Below are positions 27,502-47,754 of a stretch of DNA of 64,000 bases, piece by piece. The stretch spans positions 2,304,001-2,368,000 of the forward strand of contig OZ250172.1 in assembly GCA_965237905.1 (NCBI GenBank). The letters run 5' to 3'. This stretch comes from Nitrospinaceae bacterium (GTDB lineage Bacteria > Nitrospinota > Nitrospinia > Nitrospinales > Nitrospinaceae). The position numbers and the translations under genes are program-made. Numbering within the stretch: position 1 is the first letter of the stretch; each line of letters opens with the position of its first letter. The notes under the pieces were generated by a model. It was not told the DNA's origin. It saw only the letters and a list, made by a program, of their open reading frames with translations, and made no database searches.

Positions 27502-27690
27502 TGCGGCTGGACGCAACGTTGAAAGGCGTTATGTTCAGCCGCTTTTTTTTGCCTAAGGAGGACTTCTGCTCCCCCCTGCAAAGGGGCGTGGCCGCTGGAC
27601 CCAACGCTTAATAGCGTTGCGATCAGGCGGCATTTTTTTGTTTTTTATTTCCTGACTCGGTTTGCCGACCGCTTTTAATTACAGGCTCTA
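27502..27690 (+). repeat. hairpin/terminator block, copy 1
   Basis: TGCGGCTGGACGCAACGTT...AGCGTTGCGATCAGGCGGCATTTTT...GACTCGGTTTGCCG...GGCTCTA, shared with 30371-30520. Confidence 0.75.
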
Positions 27691-29696
27691 TTTAAAAAAA
27701 TTTCTTCGTATAATTTTTTGTATTTTTCAGGAGCCTCTTTAATCTTTGGTTGGTAAACAGAATCAATAATCTTTTTGACATCTTGATCTTCTACTAAGTA
27801 CAAGGCTCGTTGAAAAAAAGAGATCCAATGGGGACTTTCTGTGTCAATGCATTCGAGAAATTCATTTTCATTTTCAACGGTCCATAGAATTTTCTTTATG
27901 GAGTTGTAGGACTTAAATTTTTTGATATAGCGGTTAATTCGGTAATAATCATAAAAACGCTTATCTTTTGTGCGAAGACATTCTTTGATTTCATCCCAGT
28001 AGTTGGGAATGTAACTGTCTGGCAGAGAAAGCTTGTATCCGTAAAGATTGTCGCTATTATCAAAGGGACCTGTTAGGAGTTCCTGATCGATAGCTATCTT
28101 AGCTTTCCTGGCAAATTTTATTTTAAAATCTTCTGGAGCTTTATCCTCATAATAATCAAAAATTTCTTCGAGAAGAGGAAGCAAAAATGTAATATCAAAA
28201 TTCAGCAAGTCGTTGTGGTTTAAATTAAACACTTCAAAATACTTTATGTAGCTTGAAAAGTTACTGAAAGGCCGGTTAGTAATGTAATCTTCAGATACAC
28301 GAAGTTGTTCTTTGGTTGTATTGGTAATATTTAGAATAAGTTTTGTTTCGTTTTGATAAGTGTTATTTGCATATGCTGCTAACATGGATCGATCAAAAAC
28401 TTCAAGATTCTCGGTTTTTTGTAGGTCATATGGGATGGTTAAAGTTTCGGTAGTTTTTAATGGCTCAATATAAACCGAGGATTTATTTTTAACTTGCAAG
28501 GCAATTTGTAAATTTTCTGTGGAGTAGTAGTTGGAGTAATCTGAGTATCCGTCTCTATTCAGTTCAGTAAAAAGAGAAACTGTTTCCCACCCGTTGGGCA
28601 TATCTACTGAAACGGAATCACCGCCAAAAGTATTGAACGCTTCATAAATTTGCTGTGAGTTTACGAGATTAGGCCTGATGGTATCTCCCGCAAGAAGGTA
28701 CTCTTCAGTTTCATACATGGATACTACGAATTTGATAGTGGCATGAGCTATATTTGTGGTGATGCCAACCCCATTAATAGTGAGAATGTATGGGATTGTC
28801 TTTCCATCCAGATTAATTTCAGTAAAAAAAATATAACCAATTGGTGGAGATTTCGTATTTTGATCTTTATAAATCCAGTAGGTGCGAGAGCTGTTTAAAA
28901 TCGGGTAAAAGGGAATGCTCATCAAAGAGCAATCTCCTCCAAGTACCCCTCTAAATATAGCGATGGAATTTGGCACTTCTGTAAAATAGATTTCTCGGGT
29001 CTTTATGCTTTTTTTACTAGTATTGAATATTTTGAAGGTTTCGGCAGCATCTCTTTTAATAAAATTATTTAGAATAGATAAAGTAATATCATTCAGTTGG
29101 CCGAAACCTTTATTGTCTGCCAAAGAAATAAATATAGGTGCTAAGGATTCAGGAAAAAAGTCTCTATAATAATTGTCTAGCTCTTCGATTTCAATATTAT
29201 CAAATTTCGTGGCCAGTTCATCAAGTTTAGAAATATGAGCTGAACCATCAGAATTATAAGTCAATGGTGACAGCTTGATAAGAGCTAAAAATGCCTTTTT
29301 TGTGGCCTTAGTAAGATCAGTCGTGGAACGAGAAAAGATGGTTTTTTTTAACCAAAAAATATCATTTTTGATGCTAGTAAAAGTATCAAGTTCATACTTT
29401 TTTAACAAATCTATTTGGTTTGTGAGTTCACGTTTAAATGTATTTACTAAGTTGTCGTCATAAGAGTAATTAGTATCACTGATGTACTTGATGCCTTTAA
29501 ACTTACTTTCGCTAATGCTTAAGTGAAGGTTCACGGGATCAAGTTCTTCAATGAGCTTTGGTGCAGCCTTTAGAATCGAAAAAAAGTTTCTATTGTACTT
29601 TAGATTTTTTTTAAGCAGGTAAGGATGGAATTTTATAATAGTGGAAATGAGGTCGAAGTGACCTGAGAGGCATTGTAGTGTATTGCGATCATTCAT
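27675..29696 (-). CDS. AT-rich hypothetical protein (islet cargo)
   Basis: 673 aa ORF with AAGGA RBS; no family recognised with confidence; central motif IAIFRGVLGGDCS. Confidence 0.75.
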   Translation of the reverse strand: MNDRNTLQCLSGHFDLISTIIKFHPYLLKKNLKYNRNFFSILKAAPKLIEELDPVNLHLSISESKFKGIKYISDTNYSYDDNLVNTFKRELTNQIDLLKKYELDTFTSIKNDIFWLKKTIFSRSTTDLTKATKKAFLALIKLSPLTYNSDGSAHISKLDELATKFDNIEIEELDNYYRDFFPESLAPIFISLADNKGFGQLNDITLSILNNFIKRDAAETFKIFNTSKKSIKTREIYFTEVPNSIAIFRGVLGGDCSLMSIPFYPILNSSRTYWIYKDQNTKSPPIGYIFFTEINLDGKTIPYILTINGVGITTNIAHATIKFVVSMYETEEYLLAGDTIRPNLVNSQQIYEAFNTFGGDSVSVDMPNGWETVSLFTELNRDGYSDYSNYYSTENLQIALQVKNKSSVYIEPLKTTETLTIPYDLQKTENLEVFDRSMLAAYANNTYQNETKLILNITNTTKEQLRVSEDYITNRPFSNFSSYIKYFEVFNLNHNDLLNFDITFLLPLLEEIFDYYEDKAPEDFKIKFARKAKIAIDQELLTGPFDNSDNLYGYKLSLPDSYIPNYWDEIKECLRTKDKRFYDYYRINRYIKKFKSYNSIKKILWTVENENEFLECIDTESPHWISFFQRALYLVEDQDVKKIIDSVYQPKIKEAPEKYKKLYEEIFLNRACN

Positions 29697-33494: not shown

Positions 33495-35504
33495 TTACGC
33501 TTGCCAAAATAACCTGAGAATATTTTCATCTTCCAATGCAGAGATCACCATCACCAGCCACGCAGTTCCCGCCACTGACGAATTCCTGGAAAACTGATAA
33601 CGAAGATATTCCGTGGCATAGGGCAAGCCACCTTCTCTGTCCTGCAGTTTTACCATCGATTTTATTAATTCCACGGCTTGTTCATTTTTTTTCAATTTTA
33701 GATACGCCATGGCGACCCCTAAAGAGCCTTCAGGCCAAATCATGGGGAGGTCATTCCAGTTTTTCTCTGGAGCTTCAGGATAAAAGAGGGTGTTTAACTC
33801 GGTGTCTTCATAGAGAAGCAGGTCGGCGTAAGGTTTGTAGCCTTGATGTTGATTGGATTTGACAAGATAACCGGCAGTGGAATTTAATGATGTTAAGGCT
33901 TTGGATTCTTCCCCGACAGCCTGGAGAAATACCGCTCCCCATGAGGCGCAGTCGAGTGCCTTGGCAGGGTCGGCCCCGTCAAGGCGCTGGCCTCTATTGA
34001 GCTGACCGGTTTTCTCGTTCCAGGATTTTTTAACCATTGATTGCTTGAGGATATTTGCAGGAGACGCATACTTTTTTTCCCCGGTCAGTACGGCCAAGTC
34101 GCGCAGTAAAAAGTAAATATCAATATTATGCTCTATGCTGGCCCATTGGATGGAGCCGGGAATAAAATATTCCTCAATAGTATTGATCTCTTTGTTCCAT
34201 CGATAAGAATATCGGCCTTCCCCGCCTGTAAAGAAACCGTATCGGGGATCTGTTGGATCCGTGATCTGTCGCAAAAGGATTTTGTCAGCAATCGATTGGG
34301 CAAGCCTCAGATGGTTCATTGCTTCATTGTCCTGCTGAAGCAAATTCGGATTATCTGTCAACCGGGTTTTTAAATAAAAGGTGATGGCATAACCCAGCCA
34401 GGCAGAGGCTCCGCTACGCACGATGGCTCCGGCATGATCGTTTTTATTGGGCCAGGAGTTATGAGTATTAAAGGTAAACCAGAGATCATTATCCGGGGAA
34501 AGGACACGCGAGGAGGCTTCAATGATCCGTTCTGCCAGGCTATATTCCCCAACCATGGAAAACGCAATAACGGCCAAGGCATTGTCATAAAGAGAGGCCT
34601 TGCTGAAAACGTAGCGATAAACTTCCGAATCTTTGGGAACTTTGTAGCTGATTAAAAGATTTCTTCGGTCCTGAGCGGGTTCTTTAACAATGCTATTCGG
34701 AACGACCTGCGATTTGAGCCAGGCGACGGCCTTTTCCTTGTAGGGAGTCCATTCCGTGCGGACGGATTTTTTTTCCGAATCCACTTTTGAGAGGACGGGG
34801 GTAAATGTTTCGGCGACTTCACTCTTATTCAGGTTCACCTTCAATTCGGAGAGTTGCTTGATAAAATCGAGGGCACTCTTTTCAGCATCCTCCAGGGAGG
34901 GGTCAATGATAACGGACAAACGCAGCATGACCAGGCCATCGGTGATATTGCGGCGGGAATCGGGCCACAAATACCAGTACAACACGAGATGCTTTGTGTC
35001 CTCTTTTTCGACGACTGCGTAGCGTACTTGGAAAACTTCATTTCTTAAGCTTATGGATTTAAACCGTCTTTCTTCAACTTTCCAACCGTCTCCGATATAA
35101 CAGACCTCAGGCGTATGAAACTGGCTCTCGTTGGTGCCGTGTACGGCCATTAAGTAAATTGCCGCATTGGTTTTAGGATTCTTATAGAAACGGTGGTAAA
35201 GGATGTTGGGATCATTCGAATCCAGATTTTCACCTCCCCAGTCTCCGAGTTGAAATGGAATATTTTTCAGGTTCGGTTTGTAAAGATAATCCGTATTGGA
35301 AACGAATTTTCCTTCATGCGACGTTGAGAAGTAATGGGAGGTATCCGAAGTGAACTTATAAACTTTGGAAATGGAGGAATCCGCTTTGTGTGCGCCATCC
35401 CCCGTAGAGTTGCATTGGCTACAGCCAGCTCCCGTTGCGAATAACAGGCAACAAGACCAGAGGTAAAGGAAAAGACGCGATTTATTATTAAGCTTCTTTT
35501 GCAT
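33495..35504 (-). CDS. EpsI-family exosortase-associated domain fused to an (alpha/alpha)6 glycoside-hydrolase-like domain
   Basis: IPFQLGDWGG, FHTPEVCYIGDGWKV, LVLYWY (EpsI); YDNALAVIA, SIEHNIDIY, WPEGSLG, SVAGTAW; likely start 35504. Confidence 0.75.
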   Translation of the reverse strand: MQKKLNNKSRLFLYLWSCCLLFATGAGCSQCNSTGDGAHKADSSISKVYKFTSDTSHYFSTSHEGKFVSNTDYLYKPNLKNIPFQLGDWGGENLDSNDPNILYHRFYKNPKTNAAIYLMAVHGTNESQFHTPEVCYIGDGWKVEERRFKSISLRNEVFQVRYAVVEKEDTKHLVLYWYLWPDSRRNITDGLVMLRLSVIIDPSLEDAEKSALDFIKQLSELKVNLNKSEVAETFTPVLSKVDSEKKSVRTEWTPYKEKAVAWLKSQVVPNSIVKEPAQDRRNLLISYKVPKDSEVYRYVFSKASLYDNALAVIAFSMVGEYSLAERIIEASSRVLSPDNDLWFTFNTHNSWPNKNDHAGAIVRSGASAWLGYAITFYLKTRLTDNPNLLQQDNEAMNHLRLAQSIADKILLRQITDPTDPRYGFFTGGEGRYSYRWNKEINTIEEYFIPGSIQWASIEHNIDIYFLLRDLAVLTGEKKYASPANILKQSMVKKSWNEKTGQLNRGQRLDGADPAKALDCASWGAVFLQAVGEESKALTSLNSTAGYLVKSNQHQGYKPYADLLLYEDTELNTLFYPEAPEKNWNDLPMIWPEGSLGVAMAYLKLKKNEQAVELIKSMVKLQDREGGLPYATEYLRYQFSRNSSVAGTAWLVMVISALEDENILRLFWQA

Positions 35505-36312
35505 GTGGACGATTAAATCCAAAGACGATTAAATACCAGGGGATAAATAATAAGATAAGAGTAAAGATAAAAAATATAATGTTGCCCGTATCATGCCAGA
35601 AATCGTGCGCGGCGGTGGCTCCGTAAGAGTTTGCCACGATGAACAATGTCACGATTCGAAGCAGGTTTCCCAACATCGCAGTTGGGACGATGAGAAGGTA
35701 TAAATAAATCTTTTTACACGATGAAGTCTTCGTAAAATAGACGATGGGAACCATCAGGGTCAAAAGAGCAATGAGTGACTGAATACCACTCGATGGCTCA
35801 CCGATTAAAAAAGTGGCATTCGGGAGATATACCGTGGCCCCTTCAGAACTGATCTGGTATCCAAAGATCTTCATAAGACCGGTTGAAAGGGCTGTCATGG
35901 CAAATTGAAGAAACGCGGTCAGTTCCGGCAGAAAAGGAATGGGGACCGCTATTATCGGGAACAACAACGGGAAGCGCAGGCGATGGGCCGGAATATAGTT
36001 TGAAAGCAGATAAACGATAGAGAGCAGGGTGAAAAAAATCGGGACCGTTTTCAGGTAATTGAGACCGGTCGTTATTCCAATGAGATATAAAACGATACTG
36101 GCTACCAGGAAATAAATCCAAAGATGGTTTTTGCCCTCGGTAGCTTTGGATTTTACAATCCTATGTACCGTCATGGCGATCGCCGCTAAAGCGACGACGA
36201 AGCCATGCTGGTAGTAGGGATTGACGATCCACGACTCAATCAACCAGCGCATCGGCTGGAAATAGGCAAACCCGCCACCCACCAGCAGAATCAGGGCTAA
36301 AGCAACCTTCAT
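35488..36312 (-). CDS. exosortase/archaeosortase-family protein with catalytic Cys replaced by Ser
   Basis: NPYYQHGFVV, FAMTALS, IGEPSSGIQSL, GNLLRI, FWHDTG; 8 predicted TM segments. Confidence 0.88.
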   Translation of the reverse strand: MKVALALILLVGGGFAYFQPMRWLIESWIVNPYYQHGFVVALAAIAMTVHRIVKSKATEGKNHLWIYFLVASIVLYLIGITTGLNYLKTVPIFFTLLSIVYLLSNYIPAHRLRFPLLFPIIAVPIPFLPELTAFLQFAMTALSTGLMKIFGYQISSEGATVYLPNATFLIGEPSSGIQSLIALLTLMVPIVYFTKTSSCKKIYLYLLIVPTAMLGNLLRIVTLFIVANSYGATAAHDFWHDTGNIIFFIFTLILLFIPWYLIVFGFNRPHAKEA

Positions 36313-36596
36313 GCTTTCAGGGCGGGTTTCTTATTCCGATTTCGTATTAGATAAACGATACCCCCTGATACCAAAATCAGGGCTAAACCACCGGGAATCA
36401 TATATCGAATGGGGAACTCGGAAACCGTCGGAGGCGGGCCACATTTGTTTCCTTGGCAAGTATGCCCAGGCTTATGATGTGCCTCGGCAACCGATACCAT
36501 GCCAATGGGCCCCAAGCTCAAGGCTGAAAATAAAACCGCCCCAAAAAATGCGGTCACAAGAACAAAATTGACTGGTTTTTCAAATAAACGTTTCAT
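36309..36596 (-). CDS. small secreted peptide precursor with a C-terminal VSEFP-TM-basic sorting signal (putative exosortase substrate)
   Basis: Signal peptide ending AEA; HHKPGHTCQGNKCGPPPT; VSEFP; hydrophobic helix; RNRNKK; AAGGA RBS; ATGA overlap with the exosortase gene. Confidence 0.8.
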   Translation of the reverse strand: MKRLFEKPVNFVLVTAFFGAVLFSALSLGPIGMVSVAEAHHKPGHTCQGNKCGPPPTVSEFPIRYMIPGGLALILVSGGIVYLIRNRNKKPALKA

Positions 36597-36599
36597 AGG

Positions 36600-37565
36600 T
36601 TATTCCTTCTTCTTATTCGGCGGCCTCAATTCCAATACCACCCCTAACGGATACAACCACTGCAATAAGGGGTCGATCGTGAGCGCCATTTCTCCTTCTA
36701 AAGCTACATTATTAGTATCAAGGTTCAATCGAAAAAGGTCAATATCCCAGAATTTGCCTGCCGAGCCATCCCAATCATCTTTACCGGAAATAGCCTTGCC
36801 ATTGAGGAGATTGCCCGATCCATTGCCCGCCCGACCGTGACCCCCAATAATCCCAATAGAACTCGGCTTCATGAAACCCTTTGGTAAATGCGATGTTAGG
36901 GAGAGGTCGTAGGTCTCGCCGGGCTTCAGAACCTGAAGCCCCGCCAGAAAAATCACAGAATGGGTTTCATCGCTATTCCGATCTTCTGTGACGATCAATA
37001 AAGCCCATCCTGCGACCGAATAAGGGTCCTTTCCGCCAGGATTCACCCCATCCGAGGATAGGTTTTTCACCCCGTACGAGCCATTGCCCGTGACATACTG
37101 GGTGACATCCGCCAGTGCCGAATAAAGGATTCCCGTGGAGTTTTTCTTCCAAATGCGTTGAGCGGTGATCCGGTGTTCCTTGTTTTTGGGTCCAAGGAAA
37201 TGGATCTTTCCTGCATTTTTATTTTGTTCTTTAACTTCCCCTGACCAAATAAGGAAAGCTTTTTTAATCGGCGAGGACACCTTTAGTGGAACGCGACTTA
37301 CCTTTTTTATCTTCTTTTCGATTAACAAACTTTCCCCAATAATTTTAAATCCCAACCCTCGCGACGTCTGGCTATAAGTTGTTTCAAAACCATTTAAAGG
37401 TTTATGATTTACGGAGGAAAACTCGGAAGCTGAGAGGGGTTGAGATAATATTAAAAGGATTGTAAGTTGCAAAAAACATAAAAGGCCGAGAGGAAGGCGC
37501 CGACAAAAATATATTTTCTTCTTATCACTTCGGGAGATTTGCTTTATTGGTTTGATCTGAAACAC
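36600..37565 (-). CDS. exported beta-rich protein, DUF3344-like
   Basis: Signal peptide; KAFLIWSG, ADVTQYVTGNGSYGVKNL, AGWALLIVTED. Confidence 0.65.
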   Translation of the reverse strand: MFQIKPIKQISRSDKKKIYFCRRLPLGLLCFLQLTILLILSQPLSASEFSSVNHKPLNGFETTYSQTSRGLGFKIIGESLLIEKKIKKVSRVPLKVSSPIKKAFLIWSGEVKEQNKNAGKIHFLGPKNKEHRITAQRIWKKNSTGILYSALADVTQYVTGNGSYGVKNLSSDGVNPGGKDPYSVAGWALLIVTEDRNSDETHSVIFLAGLQVLKPGETYDLSLTSHLPKGFMKPSSIGIIGGHGRAGNGSGNLLNGKAISGKDDWDGSAGKFWDIDLFRLNLDTNNVALEGEMALTIDPLLQWLYPLGVVLELRPPNKKKE

Positions 37566-39526
37566 TATAACCTCAGCGTAAAATAAGTCTGATAAGTCTG
37601 TGTGATATCATCGTCTTTCAGAGTTTCAATGGAAAATCTTGCATCAACCGTCCAGGAAATCCAATCCGCAATCTCCCAGGTAAAGAATAAGGTTGTCGTA
37701 TGCTCCAACGACTTGTCCAAAGAGTTATAGGTGATGATGTAATCCGTCTCAAGGTTTAACTTTTCTTTAATTTTGTGCTGAAAATTGATAAAAAAGCTGT
37801 TTAATGTTTGGGCTGGTTTGGAGAGATGTCGGAACTGGTATTCCAACTGGATCTTTTTATAGAAAGGGAGGAGGTATCTCGCACGTATCACATAATCCTC
37901 GCGGGTGTCCGTTACACTGGAAAAATCACGCAACGAGGGATTCAGCAATAAAGAAAGGTGTTCGGTGATGTCGACATCATAAGAAGCTGAATAAATATTT
38001 ATACTATCCACTTCCGCGTTGCCGGAACTGGAAAAGGTATTTATAAACAATTCTCTTGAAACGGACGCAGTGAAATAATGCTTTCCGGATCTTTTGGTTG
38101 CAAGAAAGAAACCAGCAAGGTCGGTTTCTGAACCGTTCAGGTTGAAGGCGTTATTTCCCTTGTTTTCGAATTGACTGACATCAGCCCTGAACCGCAATGA
38201 AAAATTCTGGGGCAATTTTTGTGTAAAACCAACGGACCCAATGTTTGCGCCGATGTTATAAAGGGTCGCATTATTCACTTTATTTACTTGTTTCTGGTCT
38301 GAGCGTTGGTAGCGCAACTGTAATTTGGATTTTGCGGAAAAACTGTAAAAATAATCCGCGGTTTCACGTAAATCCCTGAAAACAACGTCGCGCAAACCCG
38401 TGCTTGGGTCCGGCTTATCCCGAAACTCAAAAAAGTCAAAGCGGGTGATCAGTGCAGGCGCTTGGAATTTTTGCAGGCGGTCGAGGGCTTGCCGTGCTTC
38501 CACATCGTTAGGTTGAATTTTCAGAGCCCTCCGGTATAGCCGTTCGGACACATCCCACTGATCATCATAAAAATAGGTTCTTCCCAGCCCGACCAGAGCT
38601 TCGGTGTTTTCAGGGTCAATTTCCAGCGCCTGGTTGTAAAGTTTTATGGATTCTTCGGTGTTTTTCTGCCAACTGTAAACCCGTCCCAGAGTGATGTAGC
38701 TGGAAACATCCCCACGAAACAAAGCGATTGATTTTTGAAGTTCCGTGACCGAATCATCCAGCCGTGCCATCCAACTGTATAGTGTTCCCAGCATCGCGCG
38801 AATGTCCTGGCGATCCGGCGCCATGTCCCTTGCCCGCTCCAGATACTTGATGGCATCCTCATGATTTCCTTCGTGGCTGTATAAAATCCCAGTGCCAATA
38901 ATGGCTTCCAGGTTGTTGGGATCCTTTTCAAGAATTCTTGAATACAGCTGAATGCCTTCCTTTGTCTTTCGCATCCATTTATATGTGGTGGCCAATCCCT
39001 TAATGGCTTCCATATTGTCCGGATAAATAGCGATGAGCTTCTTGAAGTAATCCACGCTCACTTCGAATTTTCTCTGCCAGGCGGTGACTTGGCCAAGCAG
39101 GAACAGGACGTCAAAACGTTTGGGATACTTGGAAAGGAGTTTCTTGAGGCCCTCTTCAGCGGGGGCGTGCTCTCCCTGCCAAGCCCTCAAGCGCAGGAGG
39201 CCTATTTCGCCATCCGGGATATCGGGCCGTATATCGCCAACTTTTCGATAGATGGCGCCGGCTTCCTGATATTTCTTTTGCCAGCTCAGGACCGTTGCAA
39301 GGCCGGTTAAGGCTTCAATATCCTTGGGATTTTCCTTTATCAGTTGTTGGTAAATGGCCGCCGCCTCATCGTAATTTCCCTTCCAACTCGTTTCGCGTGC
39401 TTTAAGCATTAAGGTGTCGCGTTCAATGGCCCATGCAGGGGAAGAGAACAAACAAAGCAATAGTGTCAGGAAGATGAAAAAGAGAATAGGGCGGGTCCAG
39501 CTGCTTTCTTTATTCTTCTGATTCAT
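37565..39526 (-). CDS. TPR-repeat + outer-membrane beta-barrel protein (YaiO/PgaA/BcsC-like export architecture)
   Basis: Signal peptide; many TPRs with LSWQ/AWQ; amphipathic strands ending QTYFTLRL; ATGA overlap at 39523-39526. Confidence 0.8.
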   Translation of the reverse strand: MNQKNKESSWTRPILFFIFLTLLLCLFSSPAWAIERDTLMLKARETSWKGNYDEAAAIYQQLIKENPKDIEALTGLATVLSWQKKYQEAGAIYRKVGDIRPDIPDGEIGLLRLRAWQGEHAPAEEGLKKLLSKYPKRFDVLFLLGQVTAWQRKFEVSVDYFKKLIAIYPDNMEAIKGLATTYKWMRKTKEGIQLYSRILEKDPNNLEAIIGTGILYSHEGNHEDAIKYLERARDMAPDRQDIRAMLGTLYSWMARLDDSVTELQKSIALFRGDVSSYITLGRVYSWQKNTEESIKLYNQALEIDPENTEALVGLGRTYFYDDQWDVSERLYRRALKIQPNDVEARQALDRLQKFQAPALITRFDFFEFRDKPDPSTGLRDVVFRDLRETADYFYSFSAKSKLQLRYQRSDQKQVNKVNNATLYNIGANIGSVGFTQKLPQNFSLRFRADVSQFENKGNNAFNLNGSETDLAGFFLATKRSGKHYFTASVSRELFINTFSSSGNAEVDSINIYSASYDVDITEHLSLLLNPSLRDFSSVTDTREDYVIRARYLLPFYKKIQLEYQFRHLSKPAQTLNSFFINFQHKIKEKLNLETDYIITYNSLDKSLEHTTTLFFTWEIADWISWTVDARFSIETLKDDDITQTYQTYFTLRL

Positions 39527-41457
39527 TGCTCTACTCGAATTGATGGTTTTTGTTTTTCCAACCAAGGTCGATAGCTTTCATATGAATGGATGACAAAACC
39601 GTTAAAGCTGGAAAACCGGCAAAGCTCTTTTTCCGAGTGTCGCATGACCTCTTCTAAATCCTTTAGTTTTTTCTGGTCGAAGGTGAGCTTGCTGGAGGGC
39701 ACCGGAACTCGGCGTGTCTGGTGTAAAAAAAGGGCTCCCTGGGCATCAAGGGTTTTCCCTTTCGGGATAAAGGTAATCCGGATTTTTTGTGAATCGATGG
39801 CTTTGATCATAAGCTGGCTGCCTCCCCCCTTTGGACCAAAGTCATATATTGTTTCATCGGGCAGCCAAACAGTTTCCAGACCGATGAAAACTTTTTTGCC
39901 TTTTTTGGCGGCATACCTGAGTTCATTGATTCCATGCGCAATCACTCCATCGGCACCATAGGCGATCGTTCGATAATCCATGATGCCTACATTATCCACC
40001 ACATCGATAATCCGTTCGCTCACCGGACGACCTTCGAGGGTTGCCGCAGGCTCAAAAAATTCATTGAAGCCATCAAACCAAAATGGGATATCGACGCCAA
40101 AGGCGAGTCCTGCTTTCTGAGCGAGTACCTGGGATTTCTCCGCCAACTCAAGATATTCTTTCAGCACGCTTTCTTTATGGATCCCTCCAAATTGAGGCAA
40201 AAGGTAGGGTTCGTTGTCATAGCGGATTCCGTAAAAGCGCTCCTTGGGTGAAACCGTTTGATTGTATTGAATGATTTTTTGGAGTAGGCCGATGGATCGA
40301 CCATGCCATTCTTTTAAAGCAAATCGGGGGTCTCCATCAAGGGCGTGAACTCTGATGCCGGCCTGGTTTAACTTGGAAAGCAGGGGACGCATCCCCGCTG
40401 AATCCCAGAAAATCGTCCACCCCGTTCCCTTTTTTTCAGCTTCATAGGGGATCTGCACAAAAAGGTCGGTGAGCTGGTGTCTTTTGCAAAAATCCAGAAA
40501 TGTTTTCTGTTCTTCCAGATTCTTTATTATTTTTTCCGTCTCCCATAACCACATGGCCTTATTGGATGAACACGACTGAGCCTGATCATTCCTTGCGCTT
40601 GCAATAGCGACTCCCTTTTTCTTTGTAAAAGCCAGGTCCTTTATAAAAATCCGCCCCGAACCGTTGCCAGCGACCTGAAAAACAACGTTCGCAAGTTCTT
40701 TTCGGTTGATGCGGGCACTCAACCGGGAAAGAGGAACCCAGGCGGTTTGCCAATCCTTTTTCGCTTTTCCATGAGGTAAAAAGGAGGAGACCTCTCCTAT
40801 CAAAAATGAGTCTTCCTTTTTCTCCATGGCTCGGTCTGCCATCCGGAGCAGGATTTTTTCATTGCCTTGCTCGCCCCGGAACGAGAAGGTCAGATAAGCA
40901 AAGGGAGTGGCATCCAAAAAAACCTGCTTGGAAGGAGGCGTTTTAAAATCAAAAAGGTGAATCCAAAAACCTGAGAAGCCCGGAGGTTGGTTCTCAAAAT
41001 AATAAGTCAGCGCGGGTCTATCATCCGAAGTCTGGGTGATGGACACAGTGGACTTTGAGGGATGTCTTGCAAACCCGTTAAAGTAGCCCCCCAGCCGATT
41101 GATATTTCCCTGGTTAAAATGGCTCACCAAAAAATAATCCCCCTCAAAGGAAGGAACGCGGCCACGGGGTCCTGCCGGGGTTTTTAGGATTGGCTTGTGT
41201 TCGCGAATATCATAGAGGACGATTTCATCCCCATCCTTTTTATGCAGGATACCCAACGAAAGATGGCCAATCTGTGAGGGGTGGCTTACACCCCAGTCGG
41301 GCAGGGAAATGATTTTGGATGGAAAAGAGTGGGCCACGTGGTTTGAAAAGCACAGGTTGCAGGAAACTGAAAGAAGGCTGAAAGCAAGCATGAGGCGGTA
41401 ACGATCCATCAGCTTGGGAAATAAGAAAACTTTAGCTAAAAGTTTATGGTATCGCAT
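39523..41457 (-). CDS. exported CBM11/CIA30-like domain + TIM-barrel putative glycoside hydrolase
   Basis: FSGFWIHL, LTFSFRG, WQTAWVPL, IFIKDLAF; AMWLW, VHALDGDP, GIRYDNEPY, DIPFWF, IMDYR, IGLET. Confidence 0.65.
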   Translation of the reverse strand: MRYHKLLAKVFLFPKLMDRYRLMLAFSLLSVSCNLCFSNHVAHSFPSKIISLPDWGVSHPSQIGHLSLGILHKKDGDEIVLYDIREHKPILKTPAGPRGRVPSFEGDYFLVSHFNQGNINRLGGYFNGFARHPSKSTVSITQTSDDRPALTYYFENQPPGFSGFWIHLFDFKTPPSKQVFLDATPFAYLTFSFRGEQGNEKILLRMADRAMEKKEDSFLIGEVSSFLPHGKAKKDWQTAWVPLSRLSARINRKELANVVFQVAGNGSGRIFIKDLAFTKKKGVAIASARNDQAQSCSSNKAMWLWETEKIIKNLEEQKTFLDFCKRHQLTDLFVQIPYEAEKKGTGWTIFWDSAGMRPLLSKLNQAGIRVHALDGDPRFALKEWHGRSIGLLQKIIQYNQTVSPKERFYGIRYDNEPYLLPQFGGIHKESVLKEYLELAEKSQVLAQKAGLAFGVDIPFWFDGFNEFFEPAATLEGRPVSERIIDVVDNVGIMDYRTIAYGADGVIAHGINELRYAAKKGKKVFIGLETVWLPDETIYDFGPKGGGSQLMIKAIDSQKIRITFIPKGKTLDAQGALFLHQTRRVPVPSSKLTFDQKKLKDLEEVMRHSEKELCRFSSFNGFVIHSYESYRPWLEKQKPSIRVEQ

Positions 41458-41566
41458 AATAAATTTAAGGAAACCTTAGACAAATAATCGTCTCATTAAA
41501 TGATCAGAAAATCGCGGGAAAAATCTTGGGAGGCATCCCTTTTTTGCTTAAGTCTTCCTGCGAATT

Positions 41567-42991
41567 TTAAAAACCCTTTCGAACCATTTTTCCCCAGCCA
41601 CCTTTTTTGCCTGTAAAATATTGGAAAAGGCCCACCAATCTGTACCAGACGGTCAAAGGCCTGTACACAAATACCTCAATAAACGAGAGTGCAATAAGCT
41701 TCATTATCATAGAAGTGTTGGGGTACCGCTGATAGGTCATTTCTTCAAAAATAACGGATCCAATGGAAAGCAAAATATTAAGAACGATGGTGGCTAAAAT
41801 AAACAGATAAATAAGGGGGTAAGCGACCATATTTAACTGCCAGGACACAAAAAATAATAAGAATCCAAATACTTCAATTATGGGACCTAAACCTTCAGCA
41901 AACAAAAAAAATGGATACATCACCAAGCCTATGATTCCATACTTCGGATTAAATAACATTTTTTTGTTGCCCAGCAAACTCTCCAATAATCCCCGTTGCC
42001 ACCGTTTTCTTTGCAGGCCAAGCACATTAAGGGTTTCCGGGGCTTCCGTCCAGCAGACGGGGTCGGGGATAAATGTAATATTGTAGGGTTCCTTCTTTTC
42101 CCTTAACCGGGCATGGAGTCTCAAAACCAGTTCCATGTCTTCCCCCACAGAGGCTGTATTATATCCGCCAATTTCAATCACTTTATCTTTTTTGAAAATT
42201 CCGAAGGCCCCGGAGATGATGATCAAGCCATTGACTAGCGAAAAAGCCATCCTTCCTGCCAGAAAAGACCTGAAATATTCCATTACTTGAAACTTGCCCA
42301 AAAGGCTTTTTGGGAGGCCGATCTTAGTTACTCTTCCGTTAAATATCTCACACCCATTAGCAATTCGAATGGATCCACCCGCGGCTACTGTCGTGTGGTC
42401 TTCTGTAAAAGGACGGACGATCTTCACAAGAACATCCGGTTCCAAAATGGAGTCTGCATCTAAGGAGCATATCAATGGATATTTGGAAATATTAATGCCG
42501 GCATTCAAGGCATCGGCTTTCCCCCCGTTCTCTTTGTCAACCACGGTAAGGTTAGAGTAAGTTGATGACTCATAAATTCCTCTGATATTCTGGGAAGGGA
42601 GCTCTCTTTTGAAAACATTTTTTGTCTTTATCAAATCGAAAGAATTTAATAATTTCTCCAGAGTATTATCGCTGGAACCATCATTGATCAGAATAATTTC
42701 ATATGCCGGGTATTGCAATTGCAGTATTGATTTGAGGCTCTCTACAATAGTCGCTTGTTCGTTATAGGCAGGAACAAGTAATGATACCGGTTTGGCAAAA
42801 GGTGAGAGGAAAAGATTCTTCATCTCCAGGGACCGAACGTGATGAGAGTATTTCTTGATTGCGCGGAATGCGATCATCAACATCAAAATATATACGGTAT
42901 TGATAAAAACAAAATAACCGGTAATGAAATAATTATTGAAACGAATAAAAGGATAGAGGAAGTCTAAGACAGTTTGATCGATTGAGGTCAT
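41567..42991 (-). CDS. processive GT2 glycosyltransferase (PgaC/IcaA-like polysaccharide synthase)
   Basis: PAYNE, NDGS, GGKADALNAG, LDADS, GEDMEL, QRKRW; N- and C-terminal TM helices. Confidence 0.92.
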   Translation of the reverse strand: MTSIDQTVLDFLYPFIRFNNYFITGYFVFINTVYILMLMIAFRAIKKYSHHVRSLEMKNLFLSPFAKPVSLLVPAYNEQATIVESLKSILQLQYPAYEIILINDGSSDNTLEKLLNSFDLIKTKNVFKRELPSQNIRGIYESSTYSNLTVVDKENGGKADALNAGINISKYPLICSLDADSILEPDVLVKIVRPFTEDHTTVAAGGSIRIANGCEIFNGRVTKIGLPKSLLGKFQVMEYFRSFLAGRMAFSLVNGLIIISGAFGIFKKDKVIEIGGYNTASVGEDMELVLRLHARLREKKEPYNITFIPDPVCWTEAPETLNVLGLQRKRWQRGLLESLLGNKKMLFNPKYGIIGLVMYPFFLFAEGLGPIIEVFGFLLFFVSWQLNMVAYPLIYLFILATIVLNILLSIGSVIFEEMTYQRYPNTSMIMKLIALSFIEVFVYRPLTVWYRLVGLFQYFTGKKGGWGKMVRKGF

Positions 42992-44376
42992 TGAGGCTTG
43001 GATAAAAATTGAGCGATGATACCCTTGGCGAAAGGGTCTCTAGTGTTTTTAAGAAAGTTTTGCAAGCATTTCTTGCCCGCTTCACCCATTTGGGATATTG
43101 CAGATGCGGAGTGAAATCGACACCACCAATCCCTATCTTCAAGTAACCGGGAGATGGGTCTCGCAGTGCTTTCATCCCCGAAAATACCCAGAGCTTTGGC
43201 AGACTGAGCCCTTATGACAGGATGTCCGCTATTCAGGTGATCGAGCAATAGAGGAATCGATTCTTCCGCTTCCAAATGGCCCAAAGCCTTAATCACGCTA
43301 ATCGTTTCTTCAACATTTTTTGAATTCTTTAAAAGATCGATCAGCACGGGCGCTCCTTCCACCCTTTTGATATATCCAATAAAATCGATCATTTTAATCC
43401 TGGCAGGCGCCGGGTATTTTTTATCCTTTTTGCTGAGGACTTCTTCGAGATTGATGGATTCATTATTCTCGTATTTAAGAATAATCTCATCCAATAGCTC
43501 CTCTGCCAAGTCTTCGTCTTCCAGTATAATGCTGACAGCCTTCTTTGAATTTTTCAAGCGGTTAATCAGCTTGGGCCCGCTTTCCGCTCTGGTGATTTGT
43601 TCGATGAGATTGGTGATTTTAAATCTGGCGGGTATGGGATATTTATCGACCTCTTGGCAAAGCAAAGTTTCAAGATTTATAGATCTCTTAAACTTAAGAA
43701 GAACCTCAGCGAACAGCTCCTCGGTAATGAGTTCGTTTTGGAGTAATGTGCTGACCACCTTTTTCATTAATGGGCGATCCCCCATTTTCAATAACGCGCC
43801 GGCGGCATTCAGGGCAACCGTGATTTCTTTATCATGCAATGCTTTGGTAAGATCCTTTATGTTGTTGGAATCCTTGAATACTCCCAACCTTTGAACGGCC
43901 AAGGCCCGTCTCCATGTGGAATTTGAATGTTTTAACTGACGACGCTCCCTTTTGACTACTCCGATTTCTCGTAAAATGTCGGTCATTCTTATCAGGCTGT
44001 CTCCCTTCATGTCATTTAAATAAGGGGTGATAAATTCCCCAAACAGTTCGTACTCACTTTTTTTTATGGTCTTTATTAAAGTTGAGATGTCTGCATCGTC
44101 AAGGATCAAAGGGAGAAAGTTTTGTTCCCAGACAACGAACTTACGGGATTTTAATTTTTGGTATCGATTGAATTTAAACCGTAGATAGATAACATATAAG
44201 AAAAGGAATACGGTGATCCCAATGAGAAGGAAAACAGAAAAAATCAGAGCAGTCGTGACCGGGTATTCCTGGAAGTGTTTATTAAAGGGAAAGAAAACCT
44301 GCTCGTTAATAAACCGCAAAAAGGAATTGTCGATTTTCAGATAACCGTCGAGTTCCCAGAATTTGGGAGAGTCCAT
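42988..44376 (-). CDS. membrane-anchored HEAT-repeat protein
   Basis: Single TM; RRALAVQRLG, IRAQSAKALG, DRDWWCRFHSASAI; ATGA overlap with the GT2 gene. Confidence 0.85.
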   Translation of the reverse strand: MDSPKFWELDGYLKIDNSFLRFINEQVFFPFNKHFQEYPVTTALIFSVFLLIGITVFLFLYVIYLRFKFNRYQKLKSRKFVVWEQNFLPLILDDADISTLIKTIKKSEYELFGEFITPYLNDMKGDSLIRMTDILREIGVVKRERRQLKHSNSTWRRALAVQRLGVFKDSNNIKDLTKALHDKEITVALNAAGALLKMGDRPLMKKVVSTLLQNELITEELFAEVLLKFKRSINLETLLCQEVDKYPIPARFKITNLIEQITRAESGPKLINRLKNSKKAVSIILEDEDLAEELLDEIILKYENNESINLEEVLSKKDKKYPAPARIKMIDFIGYIKRVEGAPVLIDLLKNSKNVEETISVIKALGHLEAEESIPLLLDHLNSGHPVIRAQSAKALGIFGDESTARPISRLLEDRDWWCRFHSASAISQMGEAGKKCLQNFLKNTRDPFAKGIIAQFLSKPQ

Positions 44377-44456
44377 CGTAGGGAGACGAATTTATTAATA
44401 GGTGAAAAGTGTTGCCATGAGTCTGATCCTGGCAAGTCAGGCAAGGTGTGTTGAAA

Positions 44457-44825
44457 CTAATTTGACTTTAAAGCCCTATTTACCCTTAGTATTAATTCCG
44501 CCGGGCTGAAAGGTTTGGACATATAATCTTGAGCGCCCAGTTCCAATCCTTTGATGATATCCTTTTCCTGGGCTTTTGAAGTCAGCATGATTACAGGGAT
44601 GTCTTTTAATTTGTCATTCGCTTTGACTTTTTTGAGAATTTGAATGCCATCCATATAAGGGACCATAATATCTGAAATAATCAAATCGGGTTTGAATGTT
44701 TTCAATATTTCCAACGCTTTCAACCCATCATTGGCCCATGTCAGGTCATGTTTTTCCTTTTTTAATTTATACTCAATGATCTTCCATATATGGGCGTCAT
44801 CCTCAATGACCAACACTTTTGCCAT
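44457..44825 (-). CDS. single-domain response regulator (receiver only)
   Basis: VIEDD, ISDIMVPYMDG, MLTS, MSKPFSP; GAAGG RBS before ATG 44825. Confidence 0.92.
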   Translation of the reverse strand: MAKVLVIEDDAHIWKIIEYKLKKEKHDLTWANDGLKALEILKTFKPDLIISDIMVPYMDGIQILKKVKANDKLKDIPVIMLTSKAQEKDIIKGLELGAQDYMSKPFSPAELILRVNRALKSN

Positions 44826-45131: not shown

Positions 45132-47753
45132 ATGGAAAAATTAAAGTCGGTTATCCCGGCAGATGTATTGGCAGCGACCCAGGACCGGGTTGTTCGAAAC
45201 GCCTCTTCCAGAGACTATTATTTCTTGAAGCAAGGCGGTGGCGTCACCTTGGGGAATTCTCCCAGGGGCCGATTCGTTTATGGGTTTGATGGTTTTACTT
45301 TATGGTGCCAGGCCGATGGCCATATCTATGCTTCGGATGGCCTGCATCAGCTATTCTCTGCCACCAAAGAAGGAGACGAACCCTCTATCGCCTTTTTTCT
45401 CGACGTGTGGGGGAAGGTGATCTCTCTCCTGCCGACACCTTTTCTGGGTGACGGTGCGCAACGCTACACGGTGTCTGCCATCCATGCGACCTACTATTTT
45501 ACAGAATGGGAGGATATTGCGACCACCGTACGTGTGACGGCCAGCCCGACGAACCAACTGCTTTTTTCTCTCTTCGTTTCATTCCAGAAACCCCGTCAAA
45601 ATTGCCGCCTGTTAACCTATTGCTCTCCTTATGAAAAAGACGAGCTGGGTAAATCGGATGAAGATCGCTGGTTTCTGACGACAAAAACAACAAACCAGAT
45701 CAATCGGGACGGAAAATCAAGAGTCCTGTTTCCCCCTTGTTCCGTAACCGTCTTCGAAGATCCCGATCGATTTACATCGCTCACGCACCAATCGCTTCTC
45801 CGGGGGTCCTGTGCGCTGACTCCCGGAATCAAATTTCAGGACTATGAAAGTACCACCTCGCGCAAAGAGTTTGTTGGCGGCAATAACCGGAATCTGAATA
45901 ACCCCGTTGTTTTTGGAAGGCCACATTTTCCAGAGCAAAGGTCTGAAACGGTCTTTAATGATCAAGGCATATTTTCCAATGCGCTTTTTTTGGAGGCAGA
46001 GGGCCATTCAGCCCTGCGGCTCGATTATATATACCAAAGGGTGTTTAACCCAAGCGATTTGGAGAAGCTCGCCGGTGAGCCGGTAGTTCCCGTGCTTGTG
46101 GATAAAGCTGTTCAGGAAGTGGCGGATGAAACTTCGGGACATCTGCGTTGCCTGAAGATAGAGGGCTCATTTGATAAAAAGTACAGCGAACTCGATGATC
46201 AGGATTTTTTCTCATTTCTGATCACCCTGCAACATCAGGTAGCCGTTTGCTCCAAAATAAAAGGATATATGCAATTGGCCCGAAGATCGCTTGTGGGTAT
46301 CAGGGATGTGTTTCAGGCTTTAGAGGCCTATCTCTATTTCGCCCCGGAAAAAGCCAAAGAAAAAATACTGGAAGCGCTGGGTTACACCTGCTTGAGCGGC
46401 CGGTGCCTGAGGCAATATCTGCCTGGAAGCCCGATTGCAGACACGCGAGAATTTATTGACCAGGGGCTTTGGGTGATCAAAACGATCATCGAGTATGTCA
46501 AGGTAACAGGCGATCAATCCATTCTATCCGAAGAGGCGGGTTACCATGAAATCGTGGAGGACAACCCCTATATAGGAACAGTCAGGCCCATCGAAACCCA
46601 TGAGACGGTGCTCCTGCACTTGTTTAGGATACTTGAATATCTCATTAAAAATATAAATCCAAAAACCCAATTGTTGATGGCGTTGTATGGCGACTGGAAC
46701 GATGCCCTGGACGGTTTGGGTTTTACTGATAAAAAAGGCAAGCAATTCGGGACAGGCACCACTGTTATGGGAAGCCTGCAACTGTACCAAAACTGCAAGG
46801 ACATGATTGAGCTACTGCATTTTCTTGATTTGCAGGATAGCCACAAGGATGAGGTTGGGCTCTATCATAAAACAAAGGAAAAACTTTATTCGGGCCTGGT
46901 AAACAATGCGATCCTGGGTTCGGGTAGCGCAACACGAATCGCCCACGGTTTTGGAGATGGAGCGAAATATACCGTGGGGGGTCCCGAAGATCCTGATGGC
47001 GTTTCTCGATATGGTTTGACGAGTAACGCTTACTGGATAATCAGTGGTATTCACCAGGATGCAAAAACGAAAGAGGGCCTCGATCTGTTGCCCTCTATTG
47101 TGTCGGCTTATGAACAATTGGATGACAAATACGGATTGAGAACGTTTCACCCTGTCTTCGCCCGGGGAACGGAACATTGGTTTGGCCGCATACCCAGACT
47201 TCCTGCCGGTACAGCGGAAAATGGAGCCACCTACAATCACGCGACCCTGTTCGGAATTTGGTCGTTGTTCCAGGCAGGGCAATCCCAGGCGGCGTGGCGG
47301 CAATTGGAAAAAATGTTGCCGTTTACCTCCATACATAACAATTACAATCTCACGCCTTTCGTCATGCCTAATTCCTACATCCATAATATGGAGCAAGGGC
47401 TCGATGGAGAGTCCATGAACGATTGGCAAACGGGAAGCTCCAATGTTCTGCTTAAAATCCTGGTTTGGTATGTCTTCGGGTTTCGTCCGGAATTGAACCA
47501 TTTGAGAATACAGCCCGATCCCCGGAGTCCCCTGACTCAATTCAGCTACAGCGGAACCTACCAGAATAAAAACATCGTCATGAGTTACCAGAAAACCTCG
47601 GAGGTCAAGGAGCGGGTTATCGTTTGCAACGAAAAACCTCTCAAGCTATTTAGGGATGATGCATTAAACGCCCTGGTGGCCGACCTTCCTTGCGGCAAAC
47701 TCAAGAAAGAAAACCAAATCAAAATCTCCGACCCCCTGGTTATGGATCATTAG
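45132..47753 (+). CDS. GH94-like glycoside phosphorylase
   Basis: GIRDVFQ, FIDQGLW, GDWNDALDG (catalytic Asp), ENGATYNHA, WQTGSS. Confidence 0.8.
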   Translation: MEKLKSVIPADVLAATQDRVVRNASSRDYYFLKQGGGVTLGNSPRGRFVYGFDGFTLWCQADGHIYASDGLHQLFSATKEGDEPSIAFFLDVWGKVISLLPTPFLGDGAQRYTVSAIHATYYFTEWEDIATTVRVTASPTNQLLFSLFVSFQKPRQNCRLLTYCSPYEKDELGKSDEDRWFLTTKTTNQINRDGKSRVLFPPCSVTVFEDPDRFTSLTHQSLLRGSCALTPGIKFQDYESTTSRKEFVGGNNRNLNNPVVFGRPHFPEQRSETVFNDQGIFSNALFLEAEGHSALRLDYIYQRVFNPSDLEKLAGEPVVPVLVDKAVQEVADETSGHLRCLKIEGSFDKKYSELDDQDFFSFLITLQHQVAVCSKIKGYMQLARRSLVGIRDVFQALEAYLYFAPEKAKEKILEALGYTCLSGRCLRQYLPGSPIADTREFIDQGLWVIKTIIEYVKVTGDQSILSEEAGYHEIVEDNPYIGTVRPIETHETVLLHLFRILEYLIKNINPKTQLLMALYGDWNDALDGLGFTDKKGKQFGTGTTVMGSLQLYQNCKDMIELLHFLDLQDSHKDEVGLYHKTKEKLYSGLVNNAILGSGSATRIAHGFGDGAKYTVGGPEDPDGVSRYGLTSNAYWIISGIHQDAKTKEGLDLLPSIVSAYEQLDDKYGLRTFHPVFARGTEHWFGRIPRLPAGTAENGATYNHATLFGIWSLFQAGQSQAAWRQLEKMLPFTSIHNNYNLTPFVMPNSYIHNMEQGLDGESMNDWQTGSSNVLLKILVWYVFGFRPELNHLRIQPDPRSPLTQFSYSGTYQNKNIVMSYQKTSEVKERVIVCNEKPLKLFRDDALNALVADLPCGKLKKENQIKISDPLVMDH

Positions 47754-47754
47754 C

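What the first reader, a model, noticed from the sequence alone, without database searches (positions are those of the whole stretch)
33495..44825. Candidate new system: polysaccharide synthase operon with a built-in exosortase and a dedicated peptide substrate
Seen in the sequence: nine co-directional genes, several translationally coupled (ATGA/TAGTG overlaps), in the order receiver protein > HEAT protein > processive GT2 (QRKRW) > CBM+TIM-barrel protein > TPR/beta-barrel > DUF3344-like > tiny sorting-signal peptide > exosortase > EpsI-glycosidase fusion. Established: GT2 + TPR/barrel + hydrolase is the synthase-dependent secretion plan (Pga/Bcs type), whereas exosortase/EpsI normally accompany Wzy-type EPS loci and PEP-CTERM proteins. 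Inference: a sorted, membrane-anchored peptide could prime or tether the polymer, under phosphorylation control through the receiver/HEAT pair. I do not know a described system with this combination.
Basis: partly seen in the sequence, partly recalled or inferred. Interest (0 to 1): 0.85.

Follow-up and report, generated by a model that had tools for sequence, protein, structure and literature searches.

The report
Peptide-sorting cassette coupled to polysaccharide synthase
Nine linked genes of a Nitrospinota bacterium join a widespread predicted sugar-polymer synthase to a rarer cassette, conserved in several phyla, of a membrane protein-sorting enzyme and its own tiny target peptide, which likely tethers the polymer to the cell surface.

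Summary
The nine genes, their order, overlaps and motifs are real. They form two separable modules. A receiver-HEAT-GT2 triad is widespread (61 of 251 Nitrospirota genomes carry the GT2). A five-gene cassette (TPR/barrel, DUF3344-like protein, 1-3 tiny peptides, exosortase, EpsI fused to a six-hairpin enzyme) is rare but conserved in Nitrospinota, Nitrospirota, Elusimicrobiota, Lindowbacteria and 'Deltaproteobacteria'. All 7 near-complete Nitrospinota genomes with the exosortase carry the GT2 (5 adjacent, 2 distant); elsewhere the GT2 lies beside 10 of 23 cassette loci. The peptide is a genuine dedicated PEP-CTERM-like target (20 of 20 loci). No named exosortase subfamily fits. Priming is unlikely, since the synthase mostly occurs without the cassette; tethering is my reading (about 45%) and is untested. 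Exosortase plus dedicated target plus QxxRW glycosyltransferase is already known in the Gram-positive XrtG system, so this is a new variant, not a new category. The scan earlier noted the triad and the Ser enzyme separately on other DNA.

The parts
44457..44825 (-). Stand-alone receiver protein (122 aa from ATG 44825); acidic pocket, D52, T82 and K104 present
   Evidence: PF00072 100 bits; residues
42988..44376 (-). HEAT-repeat protein with one N-terminal membrane helix; predicted partner of the synthase
   Evidence: HEAT_2 E 8e-21; helix 45-63; beside the GT2 in bacterial and archaeal records
41567..42991 (-). Processive-type GT2 (NDGS.D, DAD, GED, QRKRW); best named model PgaC/IcaA at 155 of 422 bits
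39523..41457 (-). Secreted CBM11/CBM30-like module plus (beta/alpha)8 glycoside-hydrolase-fold domain with invariant D414-x-E416
37565..39526 (-). TPR repeats plus a predicted C-terminal outer-membrane beta-barrel of about 296 aa
   Evidence: TPR; barrel inferred
36600..37565 (-). Secreted DUF3344-like protein, the strictest marker of the cassette
36309..36596 (-). 95-aa target peptide: signal peptide, about 15-20 residue His/Cys passenger, PPPTVSEFP signal (36411-36437), membrane helix, basic tail
   Evidence: the only match to a cassette-signal profile in the genome (E 4e-18, next 0.055)
35488..36312 (-). Exosortase of an unnamed subfamily with Ser174 (codon 35791-35793), Arg219 and His240 at the triad positions
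33495..35504 (-). Predicted lipoprotein: EpsI domain (about 48-220) fused to an (alpha/alpha)6 glycosidase-fold domain (245-666) with invariant D307, E458, D462, D518, E592
45132..47753 (+). GH94-like phosphorylase, divergent from the operon; possible salvage arm (association only)
   Evidence: adjacent to the receiver region in G032, G041, G042
47755..50256 (+). Sodium:solute symporter-like protein coupled to the GH94-like gene (association only)
   Evidence: ESM Atlas 0.96, PF00474 clusters; no Pfam hit

Best explanation
The cluster joins a widespread receiver-HEAT-GT2 triad, predicted to make a secreted polysaccharide, to a conserved five-gene sorting cassette whose exosortase likely cuts its own tiny peptide and fixes it, together with the polymer, at the cell surface as a tether rather than as a primer. 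Shown: the genes, motifs, folds, the one-enzyme/one-signal pairing, conservation across phyla, and the one-way dependence (cassette genomes have the synthase, most synthase genomes lack the cassette). Inferred steps: (1) the phosphorylated receiver binds the cytoplasmic HEAT domain and switches on the GT2; (2) the GT2 polymerises and extrudes a probably beta-linked glucose or N-acetylhexosamine chain; (3) the CBM-TIM and six-hairpin enzymes trim or remodel it, and the TPR/barrel passes it through the outer membrane; (4) the peptide is Sec-exported and held by its C-terminal helix; the exosortase cuts near PPTV-(S/A/P)E-(L/F)P, forms an acyl-enzyme (a Ser ester in Nitrospinota, a Cys thioester elsewhere) and hands the peptide to a lipid or to the glycan; (5) the EpsI-hydrolase fusion brings the glycan to the exosortase, and the DUF3344-like protein escorts the product to the barrel.
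For: Peptide in 20 of 20 genome loci examined and in 27 of 28 metagenome loci anchored on the DUF gene with 600 nt or more downstream; exosortase in 17 of 17 with 1.5 kb or more (some repeat genome loci). One orthologue (L041) has a canonical VPEPS signal. Among 57 near-complete Nitrospinota genomes, 7 have the exosortase orthologue and all 7 have the GT2, out of 8 that have it. In G041/G042 the triad is inverted and moved to the other end of the cassette yet stays adjacent. GT2 lies within 10 kb in 10 of 23 cassette loci, from four lineages. In 8 of 10 further cassette genomes the GT2 is on other DNA. The unlinked GT2s of G120-G122 group (support 100) with hydrolase-linked GT2s and not with 15 background Nitrospirota GT2s. 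The six-hairpin domain sits near this GT2 in 28 of 57 loci that lack an exosortase, so the domain fused to EpsI belongs to the polymer pathway. Exosortase, EpsI and hydrolase are one protein in 5 records. Exosortase dN/dS is 0.07-0.32 in 8 pairs, like its neighbours. PEP-CTERM proteins are reported to stabilise EPS-cell contact (PMC12188702, passages).
Against: No expression, cleavage, glycan or binding data. 13 of 23 cassette loci show no GT2 in the fetched DNA; some are short contigs, but L020, L021, L024, L041, G018 and G019 are truly separate. G031, G036, G128 and G129 (incomplete) gave no GT2. The GT2 background is 24% in Nitrospirota, and kin are not independent. The CBM-TIM gene is missing from most Nitrospirota and Elusimicrobiota cassette genomes. 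L159 and L163 have an EpsI without the hydrolase. The six-hairpin domain's nearest folds are mostly alpha-glycosidases, awkward for a beta-linked GT2 product. Ser at the nucleophile could mean no catalysis. Passenger sequences are unconserved (net charge -9 to +23). epsH disruption did not affect methanolan production (PMC1569441, passages).
Confidence: 0.45

Rival explanations
1. The cassette is an independent peptide-display system: the TPR/barrel exports the processed peptide or the DUF3344-like protein, and the synthase triad is only a frequent neighbour serving the same lifestyle.
For: The cassette stands alone in G018, G019, L019-L021, L024, L041 and several metagenome loci. The barrel-DUF-exosortase block is swapped as a unit: against G033 the window's GT2 is 85% and hydrolase 91% identical but the barrel 41%, DUF 66%, exosortase 63%. 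The window barrel matches neither YaiO nor PgaA models.
Against: The EpsI partner is fused to a hydrolase whose free-standing homologues sit with this GT2; linkage survives an inversion; unlinked GT2s track the hydrolase-linked clade.
Confidence: 0.2
2. In Nitrospinota the Ser174 exosortase is catalytically dead; it binds the uncut peptide, which remains a small membrane subunit that scaffolds the secretion complex.
For: Cys-x-Gly is described as invariant in the family (PMC1569441, passages). The His motif is also shifted: Gly at +3 in 88 of 90 Ser rows, at +4 in 39 of 47 Cys rows. The signal has lost its first Pro in 14 of 14 Nitrospinota peptides.
Against: Ser174, Arg219, His240 and Asn216 are at least 99% conserved in 89 Ser-clade rows, with varied Ser codons; a dead enzyme would be expected to tolerate Ala or Gly. 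A Cys member lies inside the Ser clade and a Ser member inside a Cys clade, so the two residues look interchangeable.
Confidence: 0.18
3. The product is a periplasmic or recycled glucan rather than a surface polymer; the GH94-like phosphorylase and the symporter next door recover its sugars.
For: The GH94-like gene is in 6 of 57 near-complete Nitrospinota genomes, all among the 7 cassette genomes. Its nearest solved relatives are cellobiose phosphorylases and the GH94 domain of cyclic beta-1,2-glucan synthase. A distant GH94 gene heads the operon in L027, L028 and L030.
Against: A TPR/barrel exporter is present; G033 has the cassette without the GH94 gene and G010 the reverse; a shared niche could explain the overlap.
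Confidence: 0.1
4. The peptide primes polymer synthesis: the GT2 starts its chain on the peptide.
For: A Ser or Thr lies within eight residues before the signal in 27 of 28 peptides.
Against: The GT2 family occurs in 61 of 251 Nitrospirota genomes against 1 of 251 for the EpsI-hydrolase, and in plasmid loci without a cassette. The GT2 active site is cytoplasmic and the passenger periplasmic (general knowledge).
Confidence: 0.07

Closest known systems
XrtG / Firmicu-CTERM system (TIGR03110, TIGR04145, TIGR03111, TIGR03766)
   Same: One exosortase beside one dedicated target and a QxxRW GT2: locus L101 reads GGDEF, EAL, Firmicu-CTERM, xrtG, GT2 (QRQRW), QueD-like, second GT; named as a system in PMC12854382 (one passage).
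   Different: Gram-positive; 190-aa exosortase; 220-aa target; no EpsI, barrel, HEAT or receiver in L101. The window proteins miss all XrtG cut-offs (GT2 118 of 364 bits).
PEP-CTERM / XrtA-EpsI systems (TIGR03109, TIGR02602, TIGR02914)
   Same: Eight-helix-type exosortase followed by EpsI; tripartite C-terminal signal; EPS association (PMC1569441, passages). Best scores are to XrtA and XrtV.
   Different: Below the cut-offs (100 of 208; 97 of 313 bits); one target type, not many; EpsI fused to a six-hairpin enzyme; synthase-type rather than Wzx/Wzy locus; Ser nucleophile in Nitrospinota.
PgaABCD / IcaADBC and Bcs synthase-dependent systems
   Same: Processive-type GT2, TPR plus barrel, periplasmic hydrolase; the TIM domain resembles PgaB GH153 at Z 16.2, among many hydrolases of similar score.
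   Different: GT2 far below the PgaC cut-off; HEAT/receiver pair instead of PgaD or a c-di-GMP receptor; no deacetylase in 0 of 23 cassette loci. [quoted passage not shown]
Receiver-HEAT-GT2-YaiO gene module (annotated in many genomes; no paper found)
   Same: Same triad, GT2 40-44% identical, in Mesorhizobium, Erythrobacter, Emticicia and a haloarchaeon.
   Different: Those loci have no exosortase cassette in the 14-15 kb shown; the barrel here is divergent from YaiO.
Thaumarchaeosortase (TIGR04297), from earlier scan notes only
   Same: Reported by earlier agents to carry Ser at the catalytic Cys position; not checked here.
   Different: TIGR04297 is not among the models hit by the window enzyme; the Ser clade here nests among bacterial Cys exosortases (which held no archaeosortase rows).

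Membership tests
Exosortase/archaeosortase superfamily | PF09721 and TIGR04178 above cut-off | tested here: met
   139 vs 25.7 bits and 51 vs 23 bits
Exosortase/archaeosortase superfamily | Cys-Arg-His triad | tested here: not met
   Ser174-Arg219-His240 in the window; Cys in cassette orthologues outside Nitrospinota
Exosortase/archaeosortase superfamily | Cleavage of a C-terminal tripartite signal | not testable with these tools
   needs proteomics or an assay
Named Xrt/Crt/Art subfamilies (NCBIfam 20.0) | Score above a subfamily cut-off | tested here: not met
   window, five cassette orthologues and two more all below every named cut-off; the genome's other exosortase passes XrtT at 623 vs 250
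PEP-CTERM | Signal peptide, motif, membrane helix, basic tail | tested here: met
   architecture in 28 of 28 peptides, one N-terminally cut by its contig
PEP-CTERM | PF07589 or NCBIfam CTERM model above cut-off | tested here: not met
   the window peptide is not found by PF07589 at E 1; 9 peptides reach no cut-off
XrtG system | XrtG, Firmicu-CTERM target and TIGR03111 GT2 | tested here: not met
Synthase-dependent polysaccharide secretion | GT2 with D,D,D,QxxRW and membrane helices | tested here: met
Synthase-dependent polysaccharide secretion | TPR plus outer-membrane beta-barrel exporter | tested here: inconclusive
   TPR certain; barrel from sequence pattern and weak YaiO hits in 3 of 24 homologues; not folded
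PgaABCD / PNAG | PgaC equivalog score and a CE4 deacetylase | tested here: not met
   155 of 422 bits; a profile of the deacetylase found beside related hydrolases has no hit among the genome's ORFs; other CE4 families were not searched
GH15 / MmpH-like six-hairpin glycosidases | (alpha/alpha)6 fold with conserved acids | tested here: met
   Z 34.6 to 9ju0 (rmsd 3.7, 359 aligned) and 7qsj (rmsd 2.8, 320 aligned), 11-12% identity; acids
GH15 / MmpH-like six-hairpin glycosidases | Sequence membership of a defined GH family and its activity | tested here: inconclusive
   no Pfam hit for the window domain; scattered weak clan hits in homologues; no PDB sequence match

The most novel reading that the evidence does not exclude
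A synthase-dependent exopolysaccharide is covalently tethered to the cell through a minimal exosortase-processed peptide: the EpsI-fused six-hairpin enzyme transfers the chain to the peptide (or the exosortase transfers the peptide to the chain), and in marine nitrite oxidisers this is done by a serine-nucleophile exosortase. This would be a new way to make a capsule and the smallest natural system for finding the unknown acceptor of exosortases.
Probability: 0.2. Interest if true: 0.85.

Novelty: new variant of a known kind. Interest (0 to 1): 0.62.

Why it matters
What exosortases attach their substrates to, and how those substrates cross the outer membrane, are open questions (10.1101/2023.06.07.544157 and PMC12188702, passages). 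This cassette packs one enzyme, one short target, a candidate pore and a candidate glycan-handling partner into about 6 kb, so both questions become testable by expressing a few genes. Natural Cys and Ser versions of the same cassette allow a direct test of the nucleophile. It also gives a handle on the unstudied receiver-HEAT-GT2 synthases and on the cell surface of uncultured nitrite oxidisers.

Tried and rejected
Expression: no RNA holder listed; not evidence either way. Promoter and terminator scan: 28 vs 19.5 +/- 3.7 promoter-like and 18 vs 14.7 +/- 3.9 terminator-like sites; uninformative. GT2-hydrolase fusion P0097/L067: set aside as fusion evidence because a signal-peptide-like stretch lies between the domains, suggesting a lost stop. 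Idea that a cationic peptide replaces the deacetylase: the exclusion is real (0 of 23 vs 38 of 57 loci; 0 of 14 vs 23 of 31 well-flanked loci), but passenger charge runs from -9 to +23 and lineages are not independent. Strict co-variation of Ser enzyme with the Pro-less signal: held in 14 vs 14 peptides but is broken by L148, a Cys enzyme with a PPTISEIS signal. GH8 (BcsZ-type) identity of the six-hairpin domain: no GH8 entry recognised among the 50 rows; not excluded. Xanthomonas xagABC as the known counterpart (recalled lead): the passages read (PMC3826837) give no gene content; unresolved. Haft, Payne and Selengut 2012 was not held, so its subfamily descriptions are recalled only. Paper searches that found no description of this cluster: (open-licence library only; supplements not read). 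The GT2 tree is a quick tree; the careful search did not finish.
Full report
OBSERVATION. The nine ORFs exist as described, with ATGA or TAGTG coupling at four junctions, a 3-nt gap and a short overlap at two more, and gaps of 80 and 109 nt after the receiver and the GT2. Close homologues are labelled Nitrospinota. Pfam confirms the receiver, HEAT, GT2, TPR, exosortase and EpsI domains. AlphaFold models show a CBM11/30-like sandwich plus a (beta/alpha)8 barrel (pLDDT 80; best Z 18.1 to Cwp19, with many hydrolases including PgaB at 15-17), and EpsI plus an (alpha/alpha)6 barrel (pLDDT 91; Z 34.6 to a dextran dextrinase and to MmpH, then GH15, GH76 and epimerases). A shared fold shows no activity, but both domains keep invariant acids. 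The outer-membrane barrel is inferred, not folded.

THE PEPTIDE IS A REAL DEDICATED TARGET. The genome has two exosortases, each beside one target; the other is XrtT. A profile of 28 cassette signals finds only the window peptide in the genome (the window peptide was in the profile). A peptide with signal sequence, low-complexity passenger, Pro-rich motif, helix and basic tail occupies the DUF-exosortase gap in 20 of 20 genome loci examined, as up to three tandem copies; one has the canonical VPEPS motif. Anchoring instead on the DUF gene in metagenomes (36 loci) gave a peptide in 27 of 28 loci with 600 nt or more downstream and an exosortase in 17 of 17 with 1.5 kb or more; several of these repeat genome loci, and one locus without a called DUF ORF was left out. 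Dedicated one-to-one sorting systems are a known design (10.1101/2023.06.07.544157, passages). No named subfamily cut-off is met.

TWO MODULES. Of the 80 loci kept from 142 confirmed matches to the hydrolase domain, 23 carry an exosortase or EpsI. The DUF gene is in 19 of these 23 and 0 of the other 57; a CE4 deacetylase in 0 of 23 and 38 of 57; the GT2 in 10 of 23 and 28 of 57 (contigs are often short). The cassette occurs in Nitrospinota, Nitrospirota, Elusimicrobiota, Lindowbacteria and MAGs titled Deltaproteobacteria. The receiver-HEAT-GT2 triad is far commoner: on plasmids of Mesorhizobium, Erythrobacter, Emticicia (HEAT position annotated hypothetical) and a haloarchaeon, and the GT2 is in 61 of 251 Nitrospirota genomes against 1 of 251 for the EpsI-hydrolase, that one being the genome the sample was centred on. 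The synthase therefore does not need the cassette, which argues against priming.

THE CASSETTE SEEMS TO NEED THE SYNTHASE. Among 120 Nitrospinota genomes the exosortase orthologue is in 10, the GT2 in 10 and the hydrolase in 12; among the 57 near-complete ones the counts are 7, 8 and 8, nested (the eighth, G077, has triad, TPR and a free hydrolase). In three of the 7 the order is as in the window, in two the triad is inverted at the far end, in two it is more than 1 Mb away but intact. Two incomplete cassette genomes gave no GT2. Of 10 further cassette genomes without a GT2 in the fetched DNA, 8 have it elsewhere; in two it lies between CBM-TIM and TPR genes on another contig. In a FastTree of 70 GT2s, those of G120-G122 join the hydrolase-linked clade rather than 15 background Nitrospirota GT2s, and one of three G123 copies is sister to a cassette-linked GT2. 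Cassette-linked GT2s are scattered over the tree. Related genomes are not independent, so no P value is claimed.

SERINE EXOSORTASE. The family motifs are Cys-x-Gly, Asn-x-x-Arg and His-x-x-x-Gly (PMC1569441, passages). The window enzyme has Ser174, Arg219 and His240. Of 139 aligned rows (some duplicates), 88 of 89 at 45% identity or more have S-R-H (one fragment); of 50 below that, 44 have C-R-H, 2 S-R-H, 3 Cys with Glu or Asp for His, and 1 is a fragment. The Ser codon varies (TCG, TCA, TCC in the window and 8 loci read). dN/dS is 0.07-0.32 in 8 pairs. The Ser clade (support 95) contains one Cys row, and a separate Cys group contains one Ser row. I read this as a working serine variant but cannot exclude a dead scaffold. 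I found this, before seeing that earlier agents had noted it in another Nitrospinota genome and had reported Ser in thaumarchaeosortases (the archaeal claim is not checked here).

MECHANISM. Most likely (about 0.45) the triad makes a secreted polymer under receiver control, the two hydrolase-fold proteins process it, the TPR/barrel exports it, and the cassette adds a processed peptide that ties it to the surface. The strongest link is the fusion of the exosortase's partner EpsI, and in five records the exosortase itself, to a domain that elsewhere belongs to the polymer locus. The sugar is unknown: the GT2 scores best with PgaC/IcaA, deacetylases accompany sister loci, the CBM resembles beta-glucan binders, and a GH94-like gene tracks the cassette in 6 of 57 genomes, whereas the six-hairpin fold neighbours are mostly alpha-glycosidases. 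Rivals are an independent peptide-display cassette (0.2; supported by free-standing copies and by block exchange), a dead Ser enzyme (0.18), a periplasmic or recycled glucan (0.1) and priming (0.07).

COMPARISON AND NOVELTY. It works like a Pga/Bcs machine plus an XrtA-EpsI-type sorter but belongs to neither by the models' cut-offs. The XrtG system already couples an exosortase, a dedicated target and a QxxRW GT2 (PMC12854382, one passage), which removes the claim of a wholly new combination. [quoted passage not shown] Nine searches of the open library found no description of this cassette, of the triad, or of a Nitrospinota exosortase; the 2012 subfamily paper was not held and no supplements were read. 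Papers were seen as search listings or keyword passages only (also PMC6098224; PMC12188702; PMC3826837; PMC9239080). Earlier scan notes describe the triad in at least nine genomes; look-ups by place and by sequence returned nothing. Verdict: real, a new variant of known kinds, interest 0.62.

Noticed in passing
window 35488-38464 compared with G032, G033, G029: The barrel-DUF-peptide-exosortase block has a different history from its flanks (barrel 41% to G033 but 76% to G029, while the GT2 is 85% and 75%); allele swapping of a surface pore, as might follow phage pressure.
   Followed up: partly
window 45132-50256: GH94-like phosphorylase plus sodium:solute symporter in a chemolithoautotrophic lineage; the GH94-like gene is in 7 of 120 Nitrospinota genomes, 6 of them cassette carriers.
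   Followed up: partly
window 30663-33479: MASE3-PAS hybrid histidine kinase convergent on the operon, stop codons 15 nt apart, kept in that place in G029 and G031; a candidate kinase for the receiver.
   Followed up: no
G000:C1:952008-955693 (L002, L003): The genome's only other exosortase is a Cys-type XrtT directly followed by its single 711-aa PEP-CTERM target.
   Followed up: partly
L033-L090 (Spirochaetota, Desulfobacterales, Myxococcota loci): A sister system: the same six-hairpin domain as a free protein beside a CE4-type deacetylase, with receiver, HEAT and GT2, and no exosortase (38 of 57 loci).
   Followed up: partly
L014, L015, L017, L018: Two or three tandem peptide paralogues with very basic coiled passengers ending in a C-x-[RK]-x-P-x-x-C motif before the signal.
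   Followed up: no
L027, L028, L030, L038, L044: Targets carry a Thr/Ser/Gly-rich, strand-like passenger of up to about 140 aa instead of a charged linker.
   Followed up: no
P0189-P0192: A separate exosortase group (a cluster member is labelled Dehalococcoidia) with one Ser and three Cys members: a second Cys/Ser switch.
   Followed up: partly
P0300, P0309, P0314, P0324: Distant homologues of the six-hairpin domain are fused to RHS, CdiA-type or deaminase domains.
   Followed up: no
window 27675-29696: 673-aa ORF in a low-GC stretch (34% at 28-30 kb) with no Pfam or NCBIfam hit.
   Followed up: no
L041, L024 exosortases: His of the triad is replaced by Glu or Asp in some Elusimicrobiota cassette exosortases.
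   Followed up: no
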